A stretch of 64,000 nt of DNA. It comes from a phage. How positions within the stretch are numbered: the stretch's first letter is position 1; each line of letters starts with the position of its first letter. Below are positions 18,377 through 63,223 of this stretch, in pieces. The DNA lies in sequence record PZ445530.1. One strand, given 5' to 3'. A program made the position numbers and the translations under genes. The notes beneath the pieces were generated by a model that made no database searches, was not told the origin of the DNA, and was given only the letters and a program-made list of their open reading frames with translations.

Positions 18377-18748
18377 ATGGAATTTATTATTTTGGCTGTA
18401 GTAGTTGCCTTGTTCAACGCCTGGATAGCTGGCAAAATAGGTAGATCCGCTTTTCTATGGTTTGTTATATCTATTTTCCTGGGAGTGGTTGCAACCATTG
18501 TACTAGTTATCCTTGCAATTGTTGACAAGGATAATAATAAGAAGGGTAAAGTATTTTCCGACCTGTATGACGCCCAAACTTTTGTTAACGCCTATTATAG
18601 TGATCTTCCGGTCTCCTTGCGCTGCAGCCTGGCGCAACAAGTTTTTGATGAGGCTAAAACCAGAGATCAAGCCCATGAGATATGTTTAACTGAGGCGGAT
18701 CGCCTATTTGAGAGGAATAGAAAATATGTGGGCCAGCCGTTTAAATAA
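18377..18748 (+). CDS. Membrane protein (two predicted TM segments)
   Basis: SD aaagagg before ATG 18377; hydrophobic stretches. Confidence 0.5.
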   Translation: MEFIILAVVVALFNAWIAGKIGRSAFLWFVISIFLGVVATIVLVILAIVDKDNNKKGKVFSDLYDAQTFVNAYYSDLPVSLRCSLAQQVFDEAKTRDQAHEICLTEADRLFERNRKYVGQPFK

Positions 18749-22478: not shown

Positions 22479-22504
22479 AGGGGCTTAGGCCCCTTTCTTT
22501 TTGT
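22479..22504 (+). terminator. Intrinsic terminator closing the plus-strand early block
   Basis: aggggc-ttag-gcccct hairpin followed by ttctttttgt. Confidence 0.6.
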
Positions 22505-24935
22505 CTGCTCTTCTCCTACCATAAACGGCCCTACCTGGCAAGTGGAATAATTGACTAGCCATCAATCCCACATACTGTACAAATATACATGGAAAATAAC
22601 TATTGCATAATTTTTCATTGTGTGGTAGCAAGTCCATTTTTACCCGTTTTCTCTCCCAAAAGTGCACGTAATGCCGCTATTGCACAAATTTTAACCTGAT
22701 GCACATCTCCAATATCTTGTCAACAACTAAAAATCTTTATAAGTCATACACTTACACAGCATCGAAAGCGTGTTCTACGCGAAAAATCGAGTATAACTAT
22801 AGCCGCCAGATCTCAGAATTCACGTACGCACGCCATTCTATAGCCTGCAAAGTATTTATTCCAACCACAGAATAACGGAATAGTCAATACCTGCATAAAA
22901 TAATTATTCGTGCAAACTGCATAACATAAATCAGCTCAGGTGTCAACATTTTTCGTAAACAGTCCGAAATTATAACGATGAGTTATCATAAACAGAGAAA
23001 TCTTTAGTCGTCTAATGTTTACTGTACATTACTATACTGACTGGAATCATTAGATGACTAAGAGAAAGATAAGAAATAATTAATAATGTAATTATTTTAC
23101 CTGTAACAATAAGGCAACTATGCAAACGAATGGCATGGCGCGACGGAGTCGCGACATAATATAAAAGCAGTAACCATCACCCCCGTGATAGTTTGTCTGC
23201 AAACTATTAATCAGATCATAGTTGCCTTGTATTTAGTTAATCATGACATAACAAGCAAGGCAACTATAGATCTGCTAATAGTTGCCCTGCTTTTATATTA
23301 TGTCATGCTAATTATAATCAGTGCGATTATTGTCATGTATAATTATTGTCATGCAAACGAATGGCATGGCTGATTATCGGTGTGTAAACAGTCAATCATG
23401 TAAATGGTTAGCATGTGAACAATCAGGAATGTAAACAATCCAGTGTGTAAACTAATAGGTGTGTAAAAGTGTCATGTTGTGTCAGTTAGGTCACATTATG
23501 TCAGACAAGTTTTTCTCCTCTTTGTCAAGTGCTGCATGAAAAATTTACAAACTGGTATGGTAGCATTTTTGCGGCCCTGTTTACATTCAGTAATGTATGT
23601 ATAATCCTTGTTGTGTGGGCGTTTAGACGTCTAGACGGTTGGAAGTCCACAGGTCAATATCTAATCTATCGGCTGCTAACTATATCCCACACAAATAGCA
23701 AGAAATATGATTGTTATATGCGTAAACTGTAACTCATGTTATCAATCCCTGTATGGATCGCCAGTGGTGCGCATAATGGGTATTATGTTAAATTGCCCGT
23801 AATGATAACTATTCTCACAATGATAGGTATTCTCATTCATCCACATAAAATAGGTTGCAAATGTTGTGCCACTGTGTGAACGGCCTGGCCTATTAATTTG
23901 CCTCACTGCCTTGATATTTGAGAATTGTTATAAGAATGAGAAGTATTCCCATTTCGTCCGCCTGGCAGCACTCCTGTAGGTCAGGTCAAAATCGTGGTAG
24001 AATTGGGCCTGTTCAGATATTTCTGGCTGACTCTTCAGGTCTGTGTGGGAAAAGCCAACCTCTCCGGCGGGGCAGGGGGTCATGACGGGAAAATTGCAGG
24101 TCAATTAAAAATTTACGTGGTGTATGAAGCGCTCTTCAGGTAAGGCATGTATTATGGGATGAAACCCGCTTCAGGCAATGATATTTGTGGGTGTGATATT
24201 TGCTGGAAAGCCAGATATGACGGGACTCCCGGCGGGGATGGGGTAGTACAGACAGGGAAAATATGAGAATGTAGTTGGGGAAATTGATCAGACAGGTAGA
24301 GTATGGAATATGTTACAAGTATGTTAAATATGGAGGTTGAATATCTGTAGGATTTGTGTGTAAAATCAAAGACTTAAGGGGTGTTGTGGTATTTTCTATA
24401 AATAATTCAAGTTTAATAGGCAATATTTGTCTCTATCCGTTTTGTGTGGTAAACAGATTCAGATTAGATTGGTTTACAAGTGTATACATAATATACAAAT
24501 TAAAGATACAAGAAACCCCCCTCCCCCCTTCGGCTACCATTCACCTTTTCCTCTGACTGGTACTTAAACACTTATTCAGACTCTTCAGGTTATCACCCAT
24601 ATATCATATGGCAGTGACTGGTGTCCTCCGGCCCCTCTTTCGTCACCCGTCCGCTTCGCCATGCTAATGCCATAGCCAATGGTTCGGTTGTTCACCCTGT
24701 TCACTCAGGTGTATCTCCATACCCCTTCAAACCGAAGAGAACAGAAAACCCGAATTACTCGGTAAAAGAAAAGAGAAGAACTTAATTTTATCAGGATAGG
24801 CAAGAATGTCAAGGCATGACTGCTCACTAAACAAGCAAACAGTCATGTGTGGAAGGTAAGTGATTGTGGTGGTGGGAAATTTAGTTGAAAGATGTGTTAT
24901 AGGTGCTTCCAGCACTTTAGCCGGGCAGCTAATTG
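22505..24935. repeat. Repeat-rich non-coding region at the convergence of plus and minus transcription
   Basis: No convincing ORF; inverted repeats ggcaactat/atagttgcc; tgcaaacgaatggcatggc x2; tgtaaaca-type iterons 23380-23470; CTCTTCAGG x4; duplicated tccggcggggcagggg unit. Confidence 0.5.
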
Positions 24936-24939
24936 TGTG

Positions 24940-25155
24940 TCAGTCCAGCGGTTCATCCTCTACTTCACTGAAATCAATGTTCATGGTCTCTTCCCAACCA
25001 TCGATCTCAGCACAAGAGTGGAGTTCTTTAGGGTTTACTCCCAAAGCCTCAGCAACAGAGTCTATATTTAACACCTCTGGCAGGTATGATTCATCGAATT
25101 CAAGGTAAATCAGGCCACGAGTGTTGTCAGCTCCACCAAATATTTCTATCTTCAT
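24940..25155 (-). CDS. Small acidic protein (MKIEI family)
   Basis: N-terminus MKIEIFGG, acidic C-terminus; SD ggagatt upstream. Confidence 0.45.
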   Translation of the reverse strand: MKIEIFGGADNTRGLIYLEFDESYLPEVLNIDSVAEALGVNPKELHSCAEIDGWEETMNIDFSEVEDEPLD

Positions 25156-25276
25156 GAAATCTCCTCTGGAAATGAGAGTGTGAACAGGGTTTTATACGTT
25201 CCGATGCACAGGAATTATGCACGTTTGCCTCTTCAGGCCATGCTTTAGCATGAGGAACCTGTGTGGGCTCGGTGCT

Positions 25277-25489
25277 TCATAGTCTACCACCCCTGAACTC
25301 TTCGTGCTCAGGCATAATAGAGAACCAGATATCTACGATGTCTTCCCACGTTAGGTCATCAGCCTCAGGATCTACCTGGAGCGAAGATGGAGAATCTTCA
25401 GAATCTAAGTTTTCCTCTTTCACTGGCTCAGCCAAGGGACATATAGTCACTCCTTTGGATGTCTCTTCAGATGCATGTGTGTTTATCAT
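25277..25489 (-). CDS. Small acidic protein
   Basis: ORF; ATG overlaps upstream TGA. Confidence 0.45.
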   Translation of the reverse strand: MINTHASEETSKGVTICPLAEPVKEENLDSEDSPSSLQVDPEADDLTWEDIVDIWFSIMPEHEEFRGGRL

Positions 25490-25575
25490 GTTCCACCCGT
25501 GAGTATTCCGGCAACAGCCGCTATGGACGTAATGATCATCAGGATCACCACTAAAACTTCGGACAATGTTCTCAT
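25486..25575 (-). CDS. Small membrane peptide (29 aa)
   Basis: SD ggag 7 nt upstream; hydrophobic VLVVILMIITSIAAVAGIL; stop overlaps next start (ATGA). Confidence 0.3.
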   Translation of the reverse strand: MRTLSEVLVVILMIITSIAAVAGILTGGT

Positions 25576-25849
25576 TGTGTACTCCATATTCTACAAACTA
25601 TGTGTGGATACTATCACTGGATCGGTAATGTGTCAACAGAAACGCCGCGAGGGTTTGGTTAAAATCCGAGCGTATGGTGATTTGGGTCAAAACGGACGTG
25701 CGTTCTCGCTACGCTCGAAATACGGAGTTGTTTGTAGGGAGCTCTTAAACGCTCTGTAATGAGATTAACTGCCCAAGGTATGCAATCGTGCACCAGATAA
25801 AGAAAAGGACGCCACAGAGCGTCCTAGGTGTCTTAAATTTGATATTTTG

Positions 25850-31543: not shown

Positions 31544-31780
31544 TTAGGTGCGGTCTCCATCCCTACCCTCCTTTTTCTCCTTACGGATATTCTTGTAGTA
31601 ATCAACCAGGCACATTATCACGATGAAGATAACAACAGGCCAAAAAGGTGCAGCAGTGATGATGGTGATAAAATCATCAAACTTCACCCTTCGTCTGGAC
31701 ACGATGCATACACCTGTCAAGAATACCGCTGTTATAACGGACATTACCAGGTAACCTATTAGCACAACATTTATACTCAT
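31544..31780 (-). CDS. Small membrane protein
   Basis: Two hydrophobic segments. Confidence 0.45.
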   Translation of the reverse strand: MSINVVLIGYLVMSVITAVFLTGVCIVSRRRVKFDDFITIITAAPFWPVVIFIVIMCLVDYYKNIRKEKKEGRDGDRT

Positions 31781-31810: not shown

Positions 31811-32344
31811 CTACAAATGGCAGCTGAGGGTGTCAAGAAAATTATCCCGTTCTTTCTCAGAGTTTTCATGGGTGTAGCTGAAAAACATATCGAGAATAAC
31901 CTTATTGATATATTCCAGCTCCTCTGTGTTCAGATGCTTAGCAGGATCTACAATGACATCCCAAATATCATACAGACCCCACTCATGATACCCATAACGC
32001 CACTCAATTGTCAAGCTGAGCGGCAAATCTTTACCGTCACAAACAACCTTCCATCTACATATGTTGGTATCTGGTCGTACCTGTGCACGGTACACCTGTA
32101 CAAAATCCAATTTGAATTTGAGGTACTCGTCATACAATTTAAGCACAAAGCTCTCGATTTGTGGAGACACTTTTGCAGCAAACTGTGCGTATTTGTACTT
32201 GCACTGGATGATCTTTCTGCGTTTTGCAGTTAAATTTTTTGCCGCCAGTTGTTCTTCAGTATATCTCCACCTACGATCAACAAACGCAACAGGGTCTTTG
32301 TCTCCATAGAGGTCTTCCCAGTTAATCAGAAGCATACCTGTCAC
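31811..32344 (-). CDS. hypothetical protein
   Basis: ORF. Confidence 0.5.
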   Translation of the reverse strand: MTGMLLINWEDLYGDKDPVAFVDRRWRYTEEQLAAKNLTAKRRKIIQCKYKYAQFAAKVSPQIESFVLKLYDEYLKFKLDFVQVYRAQVRPDTNICRWKVVCDGKDLPLSLTIEWRYGYHEWGLYDIWDVIVDPAKHLNTEELEYINKVILDMFFSYTHENSEKERDNFLDTLSCHL

Positions 32345-50877: not shown

Positions 50878-52013
50878 ATTGCTCCAACATTTCTAAGAAC
50901 GTTAACAAGTTTTGTTTGATCATTGAATGTTCGCTTCATATACAAACAGTCAAAAATTATACTCATCCATTGACCTACGGAAATTCTACGATCAACACCA
51001 TTGAAGTCAGTATACTTAACAACACCTTTCGGGAACCACTTCTTGTACTGATCAATAATAGCCACCCACATCTCCTTTGGAGTGCTGCACTGAGACAGTA
51101 GGTAGAATGCTGAGGCATCCCCGAACTTACCCTTACCGATAAGTCCTTGATACGGCTTGATATTGTCGGCAGAGTCACCACACAGCATTTGGTATCCGAA
51201 GAACAGCATTCCGTAACCACCAACCTCTCCATTAGGCTTCATGAAGATGTTCCCCATACCGTTATCGATCAGCATAGGGGTTTCCCTTACAAAATCTCCC
51301 TTATCGTTTCGCATGGGATCGAACACAAGCCCCGGCAGTGTTCTTTGGTCCTTATCAATAGAGATAATAAACTTGTTGAACTTACCTGTTTTTTGGTAGT
51401 GGTTCCAACCTTCAAATTGCTGGATAGCTAACCAGTCGTCAGCCTCGATACCGTTGATCACTTGAGCATTATACTGCTTTTGGAGATACTGTCTTGCATC
51501 TCCAAGCAGCAGTGGTCGAAGAGTATTGTTACGGTTGGCTTTATATCTTTCCGGCATGGGAAGATCTAGTCTGAAATTACCTGTGCCTCCAAGTACCCCC
51601 ACGCACCGATCTTCCGGAATACCGAGATAATTAAGGACTGCATTAGCTTTACACTTAATTGTGTGCAAGCAGTTCTCTACAGGATCAGGGGTTTGGATAT
51701 CCAAGACATCGAAATCTTCTCGTGTCCACGGAATAAACTCCTTGCCAGCCTTTTTACATGCAGCTTCACGGTTGGTATTCTCAGCTTTTAACCAACCACC
51801 AACGGTGTTCTTCTGCCGCCCCCAGAACTCTGTTCGTGTTTTAAACATCTTCTTACGTCCGGAGGCTTTGTGTGTTACCTCAATTGTCCTTTTTTCACAA
51901 CTTGCTGCAGCTTGATATGCAACCTGATCGAAGTCATAATAAACTATAGCGTCAGGTTCAAGAAGATCAGCCAGACAATCTATGGACTCAATAAGTGGAT
52001 ATTCTCTACTCAA
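50874..52013 (-). CDS. 5'-3' exonuclease / flap endonuclease
   Basis: H3TH-type motif MLCGDSADNIKPYQGLIGKGKFGDA; acidic motif GIEADD. Confidence 0.7.
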   Translation of the reverse strand: MSREYPLIESIDCLADLLEPDAIVYYDFDQVAYQAAASCEKRTIEVTHKASGRKKMFKTRTEFWGRQKNTVGGWLKAENTNREAACKKAGKEFIPWTREDFDVLDIQTPDPVENCLHTIKCKANAVLNYLGIPEDRCVGVLGGTGNFRLDLPMPERYKANRNNTLRPLLLGDARQYLQKQYNAQVINGIEADDWLAIQQFEGWNHYQKTGKFNKFIISIDKDQRTLPGLVFDPMRNDKGDFVRETPMLIDNGMGNIFMKPNGEVGGYGMLFFGYQMLCGDSADNIKPYQGLIGKGKFGDASAFYLLSQCSTPKEMWVAIIDQYKKWFPKGVVKYTDFNGVDRRISVGQWMSIIFDCLYMKRTFNDQTKLVNVLRNVGAI

Positions 52014-52314
52014 AGACCCTCCTGTTAGTTATTCTGCAAGATGGTTGGATGCTGTAATGGAATGCATCATCACTCTCTGCAATAAGTGACTCAACATCCC
52101 AATACTTTTCAAAAAGGAACGGATTAGACCCCCAGTGGTGGGTTATTTTCATCAAGGAGTCTGATATCATATAACCACAGATCTTAATTACATCGCCAGG
52201 TTGAATTGTGTTTTCATGAAGGTTGCTTGCCTTCTTCAGAATCATACCTTTATGATTCTCGTTTGCATACAACTGGACAATATCTTTATCTTCAACAATA
52301 AAAATTTTAAGCAT
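52006..52314 (-). CDS. hypothetical protein
   Basis: ORF. Confidence 0.4.
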   Translation of the reverse strand: MLKIFIVEDKDIVQLYANENHKGMILKKASNLHENTIQPGDVIKICGYMISDSLMKITHHWGSNPFLFEKYWDVESLIAESDDAFHYSIQPSCRITNRRVFE

Positions 52315-52373
52315 ATCTAGTTCTCCTAGTTTATAGATATCTGACCGATAATATCAGATTAATAACACTTTTG

Positions 52374-52667
52374 TCAAGACTTTTTGGTCTTTCTTGGAGA
52401 GCTTTTTGTTGATCTTTTCCTTTTGTGGTAGATTCCAAGTGCAGCGTTTTCTTGGGCGCACGTTTTAACAGTTCTCAGACAAGAACTTTCAGCTTTAGGC
52501 AGGTTTAACTCCCACCAACCAAGCCAGTAAAGTTCTGATTCAGACAACTGCTCAGATTCAGCCTTCCGATACAAGGATTGCATACCTCTGATGATGTCGT
52601 CCAGAGGTGTATCGAATACAAAAGCTGTCTTATCAAATTTCTCTTTTAAAGGTTTCTTAGCCATCAA
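52374..52667 (-). CDS. hypothetical basic protein
   Basis: ORF. Confidence 0.4.
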   Translation of the reverse strand: MMAKKPLKEKFDKTAFVFDTPLDDIIRGMQSLYRKAESEQLSESELYWLGWWELNLPKAESSCLRTVKTCAQENAALGIYHKRKRSTKSSPRKTKKS

Positions 52668-53121
52668 GGTAACCCTCTATCCACGAAAAGTCAGTCTTCC
52701 ATTCTGGAACTTTACTAAGCTCACGCCACTCTGCAAAGCAGTCTCGGTAATACGCCTCTGCCATACCCTTGGTGATCTTATTCACCTTAGCCAACTGACT
52801 AACTGCCTGAGCATACTTTCCACGGATATTTGCTAACCCAGGATGCACAGATGTGTGACAATCTGGGCACAACGCTATCAGTCCGACAAGCCGGATCACT
52901 CCCTCTTCGAAAGTGTAAAGTTCATGACACTCCACTGGGTGTTTGCTGCCTTTACCGCCGCACACCTCACAGGTGTAGTTGGCTTCTCTATAGCACTTCT
53001 TGCGGATCTTATCCCACTCACTCTTCTTTACAGCGTTTCGGAGGTTATTATACCAAGCTGTTTCTGGGATCAGTTGCACAATAAGCCTGCGTTCAGACTT
53101 CATTAAACGTCCGTCTTCCAC
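52657..53121 (-). CDS. Putative HNH-type zinc-binding endonuclease
   Basis: CEVCGG ... HPVECHELY ... CPDCH pattern. Confidence 0.45.
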   Translation of the reverse strand: MEDGRLMKSERRLIVQLIPETAWYNNLRNAVKKSEWDKIRKKCYREANYTCEVCGGKGSKHPVECHELYTFEEGVIRLVGLIALCPDCHTSVHPGLANIRGKYAQAVSQLAKVNKITKGMAEAYYRDCFAEWRELSKVPEWKTDFSWIEGYLDG

Positions 53122-53130
53122 GTATCCCCC

Positions 53131-53337
53131 TTATTCAAAGAAATGGGTGCGAGGGCAGGAACCTGCCTCGCCTTGTTTCACAAGCTCGTAGAGCTCACCT
53201 TGGCTTGTCTCATAAAGGCAAATACGTTTACCATTGTCCCGATATACATCGACAAGATACGCTGTTTCACCTGCAAACACGACACCACAGGCCAGACATG
53301 CTGCCATGAACAAAATTGCCAACAGAAAATCTTTCAT
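53131..53337 (-). CDS. Small lipoprotein
   Basis: Signal peptide with lipobox-like LAACLACG; 68 aa. Confidence 0.5.
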   Translation of the reverse strand: MKDFLLAILFMAACLACGVVFAGETAYLVDVYRDNGKRICLYETSQGELYELVKQGEAGSCPRTHFFE

Positions 53338-53405
53338 GGTTAAACCCTCCCTAACATTGTATGAGGTAACAATACCACGTCCGTGTGGTCATGTCAATGA
53401 TACTG

Positions 53406-54104
53406 TTACAATCTTTCAGCAAGAGCCTTTGCGTAACACGCTTCAGCAGACTCTTTGGTGTCAAACCTGCCTAGCGTTTTTCCTCTGAAAGTTACTTTCC
53501 ATTTGCCCCTATCTGCTTCAAATCTGACACCTCTAGATTTATCCCTCCCTAAAGGCTGTCCACGATATTCCCTGACAAACGTGCCACTTTCAAAAGACTT
53601 TTGAGCAGCAAGGGCCTCTTCTAAGGTATCGTATTCTCCTAGGTCTTTCTTATAGTAATGACCTACCTTACCAAAAGCAGCATACCTTCCAGTTCTAGCA
53701 TGAAAATATACACCCAAGTGTCCAGTGTTAGATTTAGGTATCTTGCGTGCCAGGCATCCGTCATCTGCCGCCTTTTTTGCGTTTTCTTCTGGTGTTAACA
53801 GTTGTAGGTTTTCTATCCTGTCATCAGCAACACCATCGGAATAGAAAAGTGGCTTTATGTGATCAACTTCGTACCCTTCTGGAATTGGTCCATAATGCAT
53901 CTCCCACACCAATCTATGCCTGTAGTAATGCACGCCGCGATAGATTATATCCCTGTACCCGTCCATGTTAGTACATCCAGCCTCCTTTCCCATCAGTTGA
54001 GGTTTGTTTTTTGGTGGGGACTTCCAAAACAACCTTCCAGTGCCTGTATCGTATCTAAAGACACTCCACCAGTCAATCCCGTTACTCATCTGTAACAACT
54101 CCAC
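53406..54104 (-). CDS. HNH homing endonuclease with AP2-like DNA-binding repeats (free-standing)
   Basis: HNH motif EVDHIKPLFYSDGVADDRIENLQLLTPEEN; two AP2-like repeats. Confidence 0.8.
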   Translation of the reverse strand: MELLQMSNGIDWWSVFRYDTGTGRLFWKSPPKNKPQLMGKEAGCTNMDGYRDIIYRGVHYYRHRLVWEMHYGPIPEGYEVDHIKPLFYSDGVADDRIENLQLLTPEENAKKAADDGCLARKIPKSNTGHLGVYFHARTGRYAAFGKVGHYYKKDLGEYDTLEEALAAQKSFESGTFVREYRGQPLGRDKSRGVRFEADRGKWKVTFRGKTLGRFDTKESAEACYAKALAERL

Positions 54105-54570
54105 CTGCCTTCTTAAAGATCTCCAGCATCTTGTCTATACTTTCTGCTCGCTGATTGTACAGCTTTCCAGCCCCTGGCGGTGGTGGGAAGCTTGCCCAGC
54201 GGCTGCGGCATTTATAAATGGCCTGATGAATACGCCCTTCATCAATGTCGGCGAGAGCCTTGCACTCACGGATCAGTTGCAACGCAATCTTGTCCTGACT
54301 GTCAGGGCCAAAATCTGGTAATCCTAACTGTTTCATGTAGTGTTTAGCAAACTTCTCCAAAACCTGGTAACGCCCAGCAGCGGAGGAGGTAAGTTTAGCA
54401 TTTAGCTTAACGTAAACACCGGGATGCTTGCTGTAATCGCTGAACAGCTTGCCTCCGACTATGACATCGTACCCCCGATCCTTGGTAGGTTGTCTACCAT
54501 TATCTGTGCCTTCCGAATATGCGATCATATCCAAGAAAGCTTTTCGTTGAACATTTTTATCAAGTTTCAT
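54082..54570 (-). CDS. Endolysin, lambda R-like lytic transglycosylase
   Basis: Close match along length to lambda R (NVQRKAFLDMIAYSEGTDNGRQ, GYDVIVGG, AGRYQ, KQLGL). Confidence 0.9.
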   Translation of the reverse strand: MKLDKNVQRKAFLDMIAYSEGTDNGRQPTKDRGYDVIVGGKLFSDYSKHPGVYVKLNAKLTSSAAGRYQVLEKFAKHYMKQLGLPDFGPDSQDKIALQLIRECKALADIDEGRIHQAIYKCRSRWASFPPPPGAGKLYNQRAESIDKMLEIFKKAGGVVTDE

Positions 54571-54694
54571 TTTTCATACTCTCCAGTTTACTCATAACTA
54601 ACCCGATCAACAACACTGCATAGTGTGGTTATGTAGGTGCCAATTGAAAAACCATCATTCAATTGGCTACCGTTACCTACTGAACCTCCCTACA

Positions 54695-55978
54695 TCATTC
54701 CAGCACCTCCCAAGTGTCTGGGTTAACATTTCGGACGCAGATACCGACAGGGAATTGGTAGTTGTTGTCTTCTGTCCTTGCTTGATATTTGAAGGTGACA
54801 AACTTGCCGATCATTTCCTGCATCCTGTCATAGCTACGCTCCTCGTGCGTGCCTTTCATCTTCATTTTAACAACAACACCTTCCTTGTCAACACAGATAA
54901 GAACACCTTCATCATTCTTATCTTTCTCAACGTCAATAACTTTCACCTCTGCGTCGTTGAACTTTTTCCATTTCAATGCTTCAGATGTTCGCTGACCATA
55001 CTCATATTTACCACAGAAGTTACGCATAATGGTACCTTCATATCCTTCAGACATAAATATACCAACAGACTCTTCGCACCGATCAACCGTATATGCAAGC
55101 TCTGCATCAACAACCTTAATATGATCAAGCATCAAAGAAGTAATAGCACCGTTTGCCTCCATAAGATCCTTACAGCGACCAGACTCTGTTTCAGGATCCC
55201 ACCACACCTTATCGCTAGGAATATCGAAAATATGATACTCTAAGTCGTAGCTGCAGTACCCTCCGTAACGCAAATCATCACGAACAGGCTCAACATCAAC
55301 AGGAATGTCCACCTTGTTGAAGTTTTTGTATGTTGCTAAACCTGCTTTAATCGCAGCCTGACGGCGTTTTTTATCTGCCTTGTAGTCTTTATCGATCTCG
55401 GCCTGAATTTCTTCCTGTGTGCGCCACCGTTTAGCAAGAGACACTATTTTCTGCAAAGGAAGACCATGAATGTATAGTTCCCCATCAAGTTGTTTAATCC
55501 CAGTGGTAGAATGGAAAGAACGAAGTTGCTCTAAAAGCTTTCCTTGAATAGGGTAGGACTTATTACCACGGGAAATAAATTTAGGCTCACCATTTTGGAA
55601 AACAACAAGCAGACGAAGGCCATCTAACTTACGCAAGATCCAGCAAGGTAATTTAAGTGCCTTGCCACGCTTCAGGTAGTCATGCACCAGCATGGGTAAA
55701 AGATCAACACCCTGCTCGCAATCTTCCATGTTTTCAACATACCCCAGACGGACTTGTTTTTCCCACTTGCTGATAGCCTCAAGCTCGGCCTGTTGCTCAG
55801 CTGTAGTCTCGTTGGCACGACCTACGTTCTTAGGTGTGCATACCGTCTCTTTGTACTGCAGTTTACCATCAAGCTTGCCAAACTCTACGATAACCTTATC
55901 ACCATCCGTGAATACTTTCCACTGTTGGTAGCTGCCATCTTTATTCAGTGCGTACAGTGTTGTTTTGATCTGATGCAT
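54695..55978 (-). CDS. ATP-dependent DNA ligase
   Basis: Nucleotidyltransferase motif I KLDGLR (KxDGxR); size about 430 aa. Confidence 0.75.
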   Translation of the reverse strand: MHQIKTTLYALNKDGSYQQWKVFTDGDKVIVEFGKLDGKLQYKETVCTPKNVGRANETTAEQQAELEAISKWEKQVRLGYVENMEDCEQGVDLLPMLVHDYLKRGKALKLPCWILRKLDGLRLLVVFQNGEPKFISRGNKSYPIQGKLLEQLRSFHSTTGIKQLDGELYIHGLPLQKIVSLAKRWRTQEEIQAEIDKDYKADKKRRQAAIKAGLATYKNFNKVDIPVDVEPVRDDLRYGGYCSYDLEYHIFDIPSDKVWWDPETESGRCKDLMEANGAITSLMLDHIKVVDAELAYTVDRCEESVGIFMSEGYEGTIMRNFCGKYEYGQRTSEALKWKKFNDAEVKVIDVEKDKNDEGVLICVDKEGVVVKMKMKGTHEERSYDRMQEMIGKFVTFKYQARTEDNNYQFPVGICVRNVNPDTWEVLE

Positions 55979-61774: not shown

Positions 61775-61871
61775 GCTAGGTAAGCCCTTTGGCAAGGGCG
61801 AGGATTTTTAATCCTGAAAATAGACGAGGTAGTCGTTGAATACATAGGTGGTTCGATTCCATCACCTAGCA
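61775..61871 (+). ncRNA. Aberrant tRNA-like element (97 nt)
   Basis: Acceptor gctaggt/acctagc and T-arm ggtgg-ttcgatt-ccatc are canonical, but anticodon arm folds as aggat-tttta-atcct (5-nt loop) with about 30-nt extra arm. Confidence 0.3.
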
Positions 61872-62540: not shown

Positions 62541-62939
62541 ATGATTTCAGTTTTAACATGGCTGAGTAGGTATAGAGGGATCATAAAAGGTTTAGTTTTT
62601 GCAGCTGCGCTAGGTACAGCTTATCTTGGAGCCGTATATTGGTTTAACTTTAAGCTTAATGAAGCCTACCAAGAGGGTGTGTCAGCAACAGAGTTAAAGT
62701 GGGAACGGATCCTTGATCAGCAACAAAAGCAGGCCGACAAAATTAAAATGGGCCACGCAGAGGAGGTTAAAAACCTTGAAAAATCCCTTTCTGATCTGCA
62801 GGATAAATTAAATATGGCTGAGAAGGCAGGTAAAGAAAAGCAGATTATCTACCTCCAGTCACCTGAAGGCAAGAAGTCAACACTCCCTGATCAGCTTATA
62901 GATATTTATAATGAGAGTATCAATCAGGAGGATCGATGA
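62541..62939 (+). CDS. i-spanin (Rz-like)
   Basis: N-terminal TM segment IIKGLVFAAALGTAYLGAVYWF then coiled-coil-like periplasmic domain; adjacent to lipoprotein gene. Confidence 0.6.
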   Translation: MISVLTWLSRYRGIIKGLVFAAALGTAYLGAVYWFNFKLNEAYQEGVSATELKWERILDQQQKQADKIKMGHAEEVKNLEKSLSDLQDKLNMAEKAGKEKQIIYLQSPEGKKSTLPDQLIDIYNESINQEDR

Positions 62940-63223
62940 GAGTTGCTACACTGGTTATTGTGTGCTTGTTATTATGTGGGTGTGCAACCAACGTTGAGAG
63001 AGAATACAAGATTGACCCTCCGGATGTAGGAAGGTTGATTGTTAAACCCCCGGAAGGTGCCATGAAACCACCTGCTAAAGCTATGCCTTTGAAGAAAGGT
63101 GCGCCAGATGCAGTGAATTCTGGCATTATGAGGGATAATAATCTGTCTTGTAGCAATGATAGAGCTAAATTGATCATTTTGCAAGACTATATTAGAACAC
63201 TGTTTCCAAAGGAGAGCGGTTAA
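62936..63223 (+). CDS. o-spanin (Rz1-like lipoprotein)
   Basis: Lipoprotein signal with LLLCGCA lipobox-like cysteines; Pro-rich mature part; start overlaps i-spanin stop. Confidence 0.6.
   Translation: MRVATLVIVCLLLCGCATNVEREYKIDPPDVGRLIVKPPEGAMKPPAKAMPLKKGAPDAVNSGIMRDNNLSCSNDRAKLIILQDYIRTLFPKESG

What the first reader, a model, noticed from the sequence alone, without database searches (positions are those of the whole stretch)
52657..54570. Endolysin sits inside the DNA-metabolism block, followed by two free-standing HNH endonuclease genes and a small lipoprotein
The lambda R-like lysozyme (54082-54570) is far from the spanin pair at 62541-63223, and no holin was recognised. Immediately downstream are an HNH-AP2 homing endonuclease, a 68-aa lipoprotein (signal LAACLACG) and a second HNH-type protein. 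The lipoprotein could be a superinfection-exclusion factor or a lysis accessory. The density of HNH genes suggests active homing-endonuclease traffic.
Basis: partly seen in the sequence, partly recalled or inferred. Interest (0 to 1): 0.4.

Follow-up and report, generated by a model that had tools for sequence, protein, structure and literature searches.

The report
Phage endolysin block with mobile endonuclease
This is the already published endolysin neighbourhood of an rV5-like E. coli phage: a lambda-type endolysin, one optional homing-endonuclease cassette, a small secreted (not lipid-anchored) periplasmic protein of unknown role, and a conserved core HNH gene, all ordinary for this phage group.

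Summary
The window is a Vequintavirus (rV5-like) genome; 52000-55000 is 100% identical to phages nom and rV5_ev147. All four genes exist where stated and correspond to rV5 genes 89-91 plus one extra gene. The endolysin is a soluble lambda-R-type enzyme (PDB 1AM7, E=3e-49) with no signal or SAR domain. The HNH_3/AP2 gene is a real mobile cassette: 11 of 123 related genomes carry it. It sits between the endolysin stop codon and the next gene's promoter, and it arrived with a foreign version of the last ~36 endolysin codons. The 68-aa protein is not supported as a lipoprotein. Its N-terminal cysteines are absent from 13 of 17 homologues, whereas all 17 have a signal-peptidase-I site. It is most likely a secreted 46-residue periplasmic protein with two conserved cysteines (a probable disulfide), driven by its own sigma-70-type promoter; its function is unknown. 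The second HNH is a single-copy, syntenic core gene in 235 phage genomes, not a sporadic homing element. No holin lies beside the endolysin or the spanins. The literature proposes two different distant candidates, both inside this window. Scattered lysis genes are already described for rV5-like phages. Verdict: real, largely known, low interest.

The parts
54082..54570 (-). Soluble lambda-R-type endolysin (rV5 gp89 homologue), 162 aa. The catalytic Glu20 lies in the AYSEGT motif. There is no signal peptide or SAR domain.
   Evidence: PDB 1AM7 and 3D3D at E~3e-49; PHROG 90 endolysin at E=3e-52; no hydrophobic segment. LysECP26, reported as 98.08% identical to the rV5 endolysin, was purified and is active, with catalytic Glu20 (PMC9728275).
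53406..54104 (-). Free-standing HNH_3 homing endonuclease with weak AP2-like C-terminal repeats. The probable start is ATG 54089, which overlaps the endolysin stop (ATGAGTAA).
   Evidence: Pfam HNH_3 at 52.5 bits; AP2 at 25.9 bits, below the cut-off; PHROG 99. By tblastn, only 11 phage records are >=95% identical, and the other 654 are <60% and lie in unrelated phages. BASEL annotates the ATG start.
53402..54193 (.). Variable cassette: the homing-endonuclease gene plus a replaced 3' end of the endolysin (codons ~127-162), interpreted as a co-conversion tract.
   Evidence: Alignment with the cassette-free phage JeffSchatz: about 99% identity outside this interval and none or low identity inside it. 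The replaced endolysin tail is of the allele type seen in metagenomic relatives L007 and L009. 11 of 123 related records cover the full query; listed records lacking the cassette cover 74%.
53369..53397 (-). Sigma-70-type promoter of the 68-aa gene (rV5 'P090'): TTGACA, 17 nt, TGnTATTGT. A GGGAGGG Shine-Dalgarno sequence follows.
   Evidence: The same promoter is listed for rV5 in Table S4 of PMC3606486. An equivalent promoter is kept at the same place in divergent relatives: L007 has TTGACA-17-TATACT, and SSBI34 has a terminator followed by TTGACT-16-TATAAT.
53131..53337 (-). 68-aa pre-protein (rV5 gp90, PHROG 4641). It has a Sec signal peptide (residues 1-22, predicted cleavage VFA|GE) and a 46-aa periplasmic beta-rich domain with conserved Cys40 and Cys61.
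   Evidence: Alignments. Rule check: 17 of 17 homologues have a -3/-1 signal-peptidase-I site, and 4 of 17 have a lipobox-like pattern that fails the positional rule. AF2 model with pLDDT 82: one helix plus four strands. The family is tiny, with 10 hits among 1.84 billion representatives.
52657..53121 (-). Core HNH protein (rV5 gp91), 154 aa (148 aa from the alternative ATG at 53103). It has a CxxC...CxxCH zinc-finger HNH and overlaps the next gene by about 8-11 nt, depending on the start chosen for that gene.
   Evidence: PHROG 5200 at E=4.5e-72. It is single-copy in 235 phage records, at 37-57% identity outside the genus. It is syntenic and 46% identical in SSBI34 and ChuuTotoro. Small bacterial and metagenomic HNH relatives exist.
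62541..62939 (+). i-spanin with an N-terminal transmembrane domain.
   Evidence: PHROG 4297 Rz-like spanin at E=2e-49; TM segment at residues 14-32; the rv5 spanin family is listed in PMC6139136.
62936..63223 (+). o-spanin lipoprotein (lipobox LCG|C16). It overlaps the i-spanin by 4 nt and lies directly upstream of the large terminase.
   Evidence: PHROG 1267 at E=5e-22; it passes the lipoprotein pattern and positional rule.
31544..31780 (-). Published holin candidate 1 (rV5 gp129 type): 78 aa, two transmembrane domains, basic C-terminus.
   Evidence: TM scan; PMC3606486 main text and Table S3. It matches only PHROG 10061, of unknown function. It is genus-restricted and variable, at 55-100% identity.
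18377..18748 (+). Published holin candidate 2 (BASEL 'putative holin'): 123 aa, two N-terminal transmembrane domains.
   Evidence: BASEL annotation bas52_0114 and near-identical translations. There is no holin family hit. It is genus-restricted.

Best explanation
The segment is the gene 89-91 block of an rV5-like (Vequintavirus) phage, with one extra mobile gene.

1. The endolysin is a soluble lambda-R-type lytic transglycosylase. It has no export signal, so it must wait for a holin encoded elsewhere in the genome.

2. The HNH_3/AP2 gene is an optional free-standing homing endonuclease. It sits exactly between the endolysin stop codon and the promoter of the next gene, and its start overlaps the endolysin stop. 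It came in together with a foreign copy of the last ~36 endolysin codons. Inferred: the enzyme cuts the cassette-free allele near the endolysin 3' end, and repair from a cassette-bearing genome copies both the gene and the diverged, cut-resistant flank.

3. The 68-aa gene is transcribed from its own sigma-70-type promoter, which suggests early expression by host polymerase. It is exported by Sec and cleaved by signal peptidase I, giving a 46-residue, beta-rich periplasmic protein that is probably disulfide-bonded. It is not a lipoprotein and not a holin. Its role is unknown. My best guess, at about 0.3, is an early periplasmic envelope-protection or superinfection-exclusion factor, comparable in logic but not in sequence to T4 Sp.

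4. The 154-aa HNH protein is a vertically inherited core gene of the subfamily, probably co-transcribed with the 68-aa gene. It is not a sporadic homing element.
For: Identity of the locus:
- 100% identity to phages nom and rV5_ev147.
- The rV5 gene table lists ligase, then lysin (156 aa), then a 68-aa protein, then a 154-aa HNH.

Endolysin:
- PDB 1AM7 at E=3e-49, with the catalytic Glu aligned.
- No hydrophobic N-terminus.

Mobile cassette:
- Of 123 related records, 11 cover the full query; listed records lacking the cassette cover 74%.
- The breakpoints are 53402 and 54193. The downstream promoter is preserved, and the endolysin tail is swapped for an L007/L009-type allele.
- Cassette-bearing and cassette-free genomes interleave in flank identity. 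FV3 carries it at 94.9% identity; JeffSchatz lacks it at 99.1%.
- Other HNH_3 genes, 31-33% identical, lie upstream of the endolysin in L009 and L010.
- The nearest non-vequintavirus relatives are below 60% identity and lie in unrelated phages.

68-aa protein:
- Cys14 and Cys17 are absent from 13 of 17 homologues, whereas all 17 have a -3/-1 signal-peptidase-I site just before the conserved core T..L.D.Y..C.Y..GSCP. The o-spanin control passes the lipoprotein rule.
- AF2 model: a signal helix plus four strands, pLDDT 82.
- A promoter is present in the window, in rV5 (P090), in L007 and in SSBI34.
- The rV5 gene table carries no 'MS evidence' label for gene 90, so it is not listed as a virion protein.

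Core HNH:
- 235 records with one copy per genome (236 places in all), graded identity and a syntenic position.
Against: - No SignalP or LipoP run was possible. In the E. coli rV5 clade, including this window, FMAAC14 fits the PROSITE-style lipobox pattern and misses only the positional rule by one residue. That rule is quoted from memory. Lipidation in this clade is therefore not excluded.
- The promoter is a consensus match without transcript data. The local scan found no excess of promoter-like sites (8 found against 8.2 expected).
- Endonuclease activity and the cleavage site are inferred only. L007 carries the 'resistant' endolysin tail without any adjacent HNH gene, so the tail allele also circulates independently of the cassette.
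- The AP2 call is below the Pfam threshold.
Confidence: 0.72

Rival explanations
1. One reading: the 68-aa product is an outer-membrane lipoprotein that blocks adsorption or DNA entry of superinfecting phages, like T5 Llp or Cor.
For: The window protein and three close homologues have M-A-A-C14 after a hydrophobic stretch. This fits the PS51257-type pattern. The gene has an early-type promoter, as would suit an exclusion factor.
Against: The cysteine is missing from 13 of 17 family members, including homologues only about 63-74% identical, while the signal-peptidase-I site is universal. Nine more hydrophobic residues follow Cys14, which is atypical for a mature lipoprotein N-terminus. The pattern fails the positional rule. 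There is no PHROG, Pfam, NCBIfam or PADLOC hit to any exclusion family.
Confidence: 0.1
2. The 68-aa protein belongs to the lysis system, as a holin, an antiholin (T4 RI-like) or a periplasmic regulator or inhibitor of the lambda-type endolysin. This would explain why it directly follows the endolysin in most vequintaviruses.
For: In cassette-free genomes the gene starts 63 nt after the endolysin stop. The endolysin/68-aa pair is kept in the divergent L007-L010 lineage even though the neighbouring genes differ. The true holin is unidentified (PMC6658697). From memory, T4 RI is likewise a small periplasmic protein with an N-terminal export domain and cysteines.
Against: In Certrevirus-like relatives (SSBI34, ChuuTotoro) the homologue keeps its slot between the ligase and the exonuclease with no endolysin nearby. 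A separate promoter, and in SSBI34 a terminator as well, uncouples it from the upstream gene. After signal cleavage no transmembrane domain remains, and the C-terminus is not basic, so it does not look like a holin. It has no similarity to PHROG lysis families.
Confidence: 0.15
3. Both HNH genes are active homing endonucleases, and the locus is a hotspot of ongoing endonuclease traffic.
For: Both have HNH motifs. GenBank records often label the 154-aa protein a 'homing endonuclease'. HNH_3 genes occur on either side of the endolysin in different lineages. Related genera carry many HNH genes (PMC9769974).
Against: The 154-aa gene is single-copy in 235 genomes (236 places in all). Its divergence tracks taxonomy, it keeps its position upstream of the 5'-exonuclease, and it overlaps its downstream neighbour. 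None of this fits a sporadic selfish element. It has no paralogue in the window.
Confidence: 0.1

Closest known systems
rV5 genes 88-93 (Kropinski et al. 2013, PMC3606486) and the same block in more than 100 GenBank vequintaviruses
   Same: Same gene order (ligase, lysin, 68-aa ORF, 154-aa HNH), the same predicted promoter P090, and 95-100% protein identity.
   Different: rV5 itself lacks the HNH_3/AP2 cassette and has the 156-aa endolysin allele. The window carries the cassette and a 162-aa mosaic endolysin, as do nom, RudolfGeigy and FV3.
Phage lambda R endolysin (lytic transglycosylase; PDB 1AM7 and 3D3D) and LysECP26
   Same: The catalytic Glu is conserved, the size is similar, and the protein is soluble and therefore holin-dependent.
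   Different: It is not part of an S-R-Rz/Rz1 cassette. It lies in the DNA-metabolism block, about 8 kb from the spanins and more than 20 kb from either proposed holin.
Free-standing homing endonucleases of T-even phages (Seg and Mob proteins; 'intronless homing') and the HNH_3-AP2 endonuclease class
   Same: Intergenic insertion between conserved genes, patchy distribution among near-identical genomes, and a diverged flank consistent with co-conversion and self-immunity. The mechanism is taken from established knowledge of T4 homing.
   Different: The nuclease family is HNH_3 rather than GIY-YIG. The target site and cleavage are untested. The diverged flank also exists without the endonuclease in L007.
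T4 Sp (spackle) and T4 RI: small periplasmic phage proteins expressed early
   Same: Small size, N-terminal export signal, periplasmic location and an early-type promoter. This is an analogy of logic only; the facts about Sp and RI are from memory.
T5 Llp / Cor-type exclusion lipoproteins
   Same: A short protein with an N-terminal hydrophobic signal encoded by a virulent coliphage.
   Different: The lipobox cysteine is not conserved in the family and the pattern fails the positional rule. There is no homology.

Membership tests
Lambda-R-type endolysin (lytic transglycosylase, GH24-like fold) | Full-length sequence similarity to lambda lysozyme | tested here: met
   PDB 1AM7 at E=2.9e-49, with query residues 4-160 aligned to chain residues 3-154. 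The local Pfam copy gave no hit, even at E<=1.
Lambda-R-type endolysin (lytic transglycosylase, GH24-like fold) | Catalytic glutamate in the SEGT motif | tested here: met
   Glu20 in AYSEGT aligns with the lambda AWSEGT motif. Glu20 is named as the catalytic residue for LysECP26.
Lambda-R-type endolysin (lytic transglycosylase, GH24-like fold) | Cytoplasmic accumulation (no signal or SAR domain), hence dependence on a holin | tested here: met
   The 19-residue hydropathy scan finds no hydrophobic segment. The N-terminus MKLDKNVQRKAF is charged.
Free-standing homing endonuclease (232-aa HNH_3/AP2 protein) | Nuclease domain of a known homing family | tested here: met
   Pfam HNH_3 at 52.5 bits against a 24.8-bit cut-off; PHROG 99 at E=3e-49.
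Free-standing homing endonuclease (232-aa HNH_3/AP2 protein) | AP2-type DNA-binding module | tested here: inconclusive
   Pfam AP2 at 25.9 bits, below the 33.3-bit cut-off. PHROG 953 matches the same C-terminal stretch.
Free-standing homing endonuclease (232-aa HNH_3/AP2 protein) | Sporadic presence among otherwise near-identical genomes, at a precise intergenic site | tested here: met
   11 of 123 related records cover the full query. The breakpoints are 53402 and 54193, and both flanking genes and the downstream promoter remain intact.
Free-standing homing endonuclease (232-aa HNH_3/AP2 protein) | Cleavage of the cassette-free allele and preferential inheritance | not testable with these tools
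   This needs the purified enzyme or mixed infections. The only sequence support is indirect: a diverged flank of about 110 nt inside the endolysin.
Free-standing homing endonuclease (154-aa HNH protein) | Sporadic distribution among relatives | tested here: not met
   It is present once per genome in 235 records (236 places in all) across several genera. Its position is syntenic, at 46% identity in SSBI34 and ChuuTotoro.
Bacterial lipoprotein (68-aa protein) | Lipobox ending in a cysteine that is conserved in the family | tested here: not met
   A lipobox-like pattern occurs in only 4 of 17 homologues, at Cys14, and it fails the 15-35 positional rule. The o-spanin control passes (alignments). 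The rule is recalled from PROSITE PS51257.
Bacterial lipoprotein (68-aa protein) | Lsp-dependent processing and lipidation | not testable with these tools
   This needs globomycin or labelling experiments.
Sec-exported, signal-peptidase-I-cleaved periplasmic protein (68-aa protein) | Basic n-region, hydrophobic h-region, and small residues at -3 and -1 before the mature part | tested here: met
   17 of 17 homologues have such a site (VFA|G, AWS|G, AHA|G, AEA|S and others) directly upstream of the conserved core. AF2 models residues 2-16 as a detached helix.
Holin (68-aa protein) | At least one transmembrane domain retained in the mature protein, plus a charged cytoplasmic C-terminus | tested here: not met
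   The only hydrophobic segment is the predicted cleavable signal. The C-terminal domain is beta-rich, and the whole protein is acidic (pI 4.8 in the rV5 table).
T4 Sp / RI / Imm-type exclusion or lysis-inhibition proteins (68-aa protein) | Detectable sequence or fold homology | tested here: not met
Two-component spanin | An i-spanin with an N-terminal transmembrane domain, followed by an o-spanin with a lipobox, encoded by adjacent or overlapping genes | tested here: met
   PHROG 4297 and PHROG 1267; TM segment at residues 14-32; lipobox at Cys16; 4-nt overlap.

The most novel reading that the evidence does not exclude
The gp90 family of 46-residue, two-cysteine periplasmic beta proteins has about 10 detectable members among 1.84 billion protein representatives and is conserved across Vequintavirinae with its own early-type promoter. 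It could be a new kind of phage periplasmic effector. One possibility is an inhibitor of peptidoglycan-degrading enzymes that protects the infected cell from superinfecting phages or from premature action of its own lambda-type endolysin. If so, its position directly after the endolysin in vequintaviruses would be functional.
Probability: 0.2. Interest if true: 0.45.

Novelty: already known. Interest (0 to 1): 0.15.

Why it matters
It matters little beyond housekeeping. The analysis corrects one mis-call (secreted protein, not lipoprotein) and separates a truly mobile HNH gene from a conserved core HNH that databases routinely label 'homing endonuclease'. It also documents a clean example of a homing cassette that has rewritten the 3' end of an endolysin gene. 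Two modest open questions remain. Which protein is the holin of rV5-like phages? The literature offers two conflicting candidates, both in this window. And what does the small conserved periplasmic protein do? Both questions could bear on engineering these phages, which are studied as control or therapy agents, but neither would surprise a specialist.

Tried and rejected
- Pfam, NCBIfam and PADLOC on the 68-aa protein gave no hits.
- A profile HMM search of 1.84 billion representatives found only about 10 hits. These were all small secreted homologues, apart from a few spurious repeat proteins.
- I looked for a holin next to the endolysin or the spanins. There is no coding-strand transmembrane ORF, and the intergenic gaps (about 60-125 nt) are too short.
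- I tried to discriminate the two published holin candidates by family hits and by distribution. Both lack family hits and both are genus-restricted, so the comparison was not decisive.
- I checked whether the BASEL 'putative glycosidase' upstream of the gp129-type candidate is a muralytic enzyme. Neither PHROG nor PDB supports this.
- I searched the window for paralogues of either HNH gene and found none.
- I considered the idea that the 68-aa gene is tied to the endolysin. It is weakened by Certrevirus-like relatives, where the gene persists without an endolysin nearby.
- Literature searches for a function of this protein or for superinfection exclusion in Vequintavirinae found nothing relevant.
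Full report
**What the window is.** Bases 52000-55000 are 100% identical to Escherichia phages nom, rV5_ev147 and rV5_ev156, and 95-99% identical to about 110 other rV5-like phages of the genus Vequintavirus. The finding therefore lies in a much-sequenced phage group. In the original rV5 annotation the block reads: gene 88 DNA ligase, gene 89 lysin (156 aa), gene 90 (68 aa, no annotation), gene 91 HNH endonuclease (154 aa), then genes 92 and 93 (PMC3606486, Table S3).

**Check of the observation.**
- All four ORFs are on the minus strand at the stated coordinates.
- The 162-aa protein matches lambda lysozyme (PDB 1AM7) at E=2.9e-49 over its full length, with the catalytic Glu in the SEGT motif. 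It also matches PHROG 90 'endolysin'. The local Pfam copy gave no hit.
- The endolysin has no hydrophobic N-terminus. It is therefore a soluble, holin-dependent enzyme.
- LysECP26, reported as 98.08% identical to the rV5 endolysin, has been purified and shown to be active (PMC9728275).
- The gene lies between the ATP-dependent DNA ligase and a run of nuclease genes: 5'-exonuclease, EndoVII and a DnaQ-like exonuclease. 'Inside the DNA-metabolism block' is correct.
- The spanin pair at 62541-62939 and 62936-63223 is confirmed by PHROG matches, an N-terminal transmembrane domain and a lipobox at Cys16. It lies directly upstream of the large terminase, as already published for rV5 (PMC7344957; PMC6139136).

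**The HNH_3/AP2 gene is a genuine mobile cassette.**
- Pfam HNH_3 is well above threshold, and AP2 is below it.
- Of 123 related genomes, 11 cover the full query; listed records lacking the cassette cover 74%. By tblastn, 11 records are >=95% identical, and the other 654 are below 60% and lie in unrelated phages.
- Alignment with the cassette-free phage JeffSchatz places the breakpoints at about 53402 and 54193.
- The left junction lies just after the endonuclease stop codon and immediately before the -35 box of the next gene's promoter, which is left intact.
- The right junction lies inside the endolysin. Endolysin nucleotides 1 to about 376 are about 99% identical to JeffSchatz. The last ~36 codons are a different allele (SFPPPPGAGKLYNQR... 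instead of SLPGAGYGQHEQK...).
- That allele type also occurs in divergent metagenomic relatives L007 and L009.
- The likely endonuclease start (ATG 54089) overlaps the endolysin stop as ATGAGTAA, which is also the start BASEL annotates.
- Flank identity does not sort genomes by cassette status. FV3 carries the cassette at 94.9% identity, while JeffSchatz lacks it at 99.1%.
- In L009 and L010, other HNH_3 genes (31-33% identical) sit upstream of the endolysin.

These features are the textbook signature of intronless homing with co-conversion of a cut-resistant flank. Cleavage itself is inferred, not shown. L007 carries the 'resistant' tail with no endonuclease beside it.

**The 68-aa protein is not supported as a lipoprotein.**
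- The N-terminus reads MKDFLLAILFMAACLACGVVFAGE, not '...LAACLACG'.
- The family is very small. The word-indexed search found 11 clusters. A profile search of 1.84 billion representatives found 10 hits. tblastn found four remote hits in other Vequintavirinae.
- In the alignments, Cys14 and Cys17 occur only in the E. coli rV5 clade.
- A script applying a PROSITE-style lipoprotein rule, recalled from memory, found a lipobox-like pattern in 4 of 17 homologues. In all four it fails the positional rule by one residue. The o-spanin used as a positive control passes.
- All 17 homologues have a signal-peptidase-I -3/-1 site (VFA|G, AWS|G, AHA|G, AEA|S and others) directly before the conserved core T..L.D.Y...C.Y...GSCP. 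Two cysteines are conserved in every homologue.
- AlphaFold2 (pLDDT 82) gives an N-terminal helix followed by four beta strands.

The best reading is a Sec-secreted 46-residue periplasmic protein with a probable disulfide. Lipidation in the rV5 clade alone cannot be formally excluded without LipoP or an experiment.

**Transcription and synteny of the 68-aa gene.**
- A near-consensus extended -10 promoter (TTGACA, 17 nt, TGnTATTGT) and a strong Shine-Dalgarno sequence precede the gene. This is rV5's published P090.
- Equivalent promoters occupy the same position although the sequence has diverged: L007 has TTGACA-17-TATACT, and Salmonella phage SSBI34 has a terminator followed by TTGACT-16-TATAAT.
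- Perfect sigma-70 consensus sites are enriched in the window as a whole, with 3 found against 0.08 expected.
- In cassette-free vequintaviruses the gene starts 63 nt after the endolysin stop. The endolysin/68-aa pair persists in the L007-L010 lineage.
- In Certrevirus-like SSBI34 and Serratia phage ChuuTotoro, however, the homologue keeps its slot between the ligase and the exonuclease with no endolysin nearby.
- The gene therefore belongs to the conserved backbone, and the endolysin occupies a variable slot next to it. This weakens the 'lysis accessory' idea.
- The rV5 gene table does not mark gp90 as detected in virions.
- Function remains unknown. By analogy with early periplasmic proteins of T4 (from memory), I favour an envelope-protection or exclusion role at about 0.3, ahead of a lysis-regulator role at about 0.15.

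**The second HNH is a core gene.**
- tblastn finds 236 places in 235 phage records, that is, one copy per genome.
- Identity is >=95% within the genus and 45-57% in Klebsiella, Cronobacter, Salmonella, Pectobacterium, Erwinia, Enterobacter and Proteus relatives. It is about 37% in Pseudomonas phages.
- In SSBI34 and ChuuTotoro it is 46% identical and lies in the same position upstream of the 5'-exonuclease.
- It overlaps the next gene and has no paralogue in the window.
- Small bacterial and metagenomic HNH relatives exist.
- This distribution is the opposite of a sporadic homing element. 'Active homing traffic' therefore rests on the HNH_3 cassette alone.

**Holin.**
- No coding-strand transmembrane ORF lies beside the endolysin or the spanins, and the intergenic gaps are too short to hide one.
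- The literature disagrees on the holin. The rV5 paper proposes gp129, a 78-aa protein with two transmembrane domains and a basic C-terminus. This is window 31544-31780.
- BASEL labels a different 123-aa protein 'putative holin'. This is window 18377-18748.
- Neither candidate hits a holin family, and both are genus-restricted.

**Verdict.** The features are real, but most of the finding is already in the literature and in GenBank. The interpretation needs two corrections: the small protein is secreted rather than a lipoprotein, and there is one mobile HNH rather than two. Dispersed lysis genes are a known trait of this group, as in T4. Interest is low. The only mildly novel thread is the uncharacterised, narrowly distributed periplasmic mini-protein.

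Noticed in passing
window 61775-61871 (+): A 97-nt tRNA-like gene sits in the seven-tRNA cluster. It scores 35.5 bits against Rfam tRNA, just above the gathering score. ARAGORN reports an anomalous four-base anticodon call. BASEL annotates the homologue as tRNA-Lys(AAA). The long variable arm is unusual for a Lys tRNA.
   Followed up: partly
window ~22500-25800: This stretch has no long ORFs. GC falls to 0.37 and the GC-skew sign changes near 25 kb, where the plus- and minus-strand transcription units meet. It corresponds to the 'non-coding' box in the rV5 paper and could hold an origin or regulatory RNAs.
   Followed up: no
window 52006-52314 (-): This 102-aa ORF is labelled 'transposase-like protein' in many GenBank records and in PHROG 14449. 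It has no Pfam, NCBIfam or PADLOC support, so the label is probably propagated mis-annotation.
   Followed up: partly
window 31811-32335 (-): This 174-aa protein lies directly upstream of the gp129-type holin candidate, and BASEL annotates it as 'putative glycosidase'. PHROG assigns no function and there is no PDB sequence match. If it were muralytic, the pair would resemble a second lysis module.
   Followed up: partly
window 31544-31780 versus 52000-55000: The window is mosaic relative to its best database match. It is 100% identical to phage nom at 52-55 kb, but its gp129-type protein is only 94.9% identical to nom's and 100% identical to those of MaxTheCat, MaxBurger and EmilHeitz. This fits frequent recombination among vequintaviruses.
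   Followed up: no
L009 2742-3422 and L010 2673-3368 (metagenomic relatives): Two further HNH_3 genes, 31-33% identical to the window's, are inserted upstream of the endolysin in related metagenomic phages. Both ends of the endolysin gene are therefore insertion sites for this endonuclease class.
   Followed up: partly
window 52348-52377 (-): A second near-consensus sigma-70 promoter (TTGACA, 18 nt, TATTAT) lies upstream of the 102-aa gene. It equals rV5 P093, so this 'DNA-metabolism' block is cut into several short host-polymerase transcription units.
   Followed up: no
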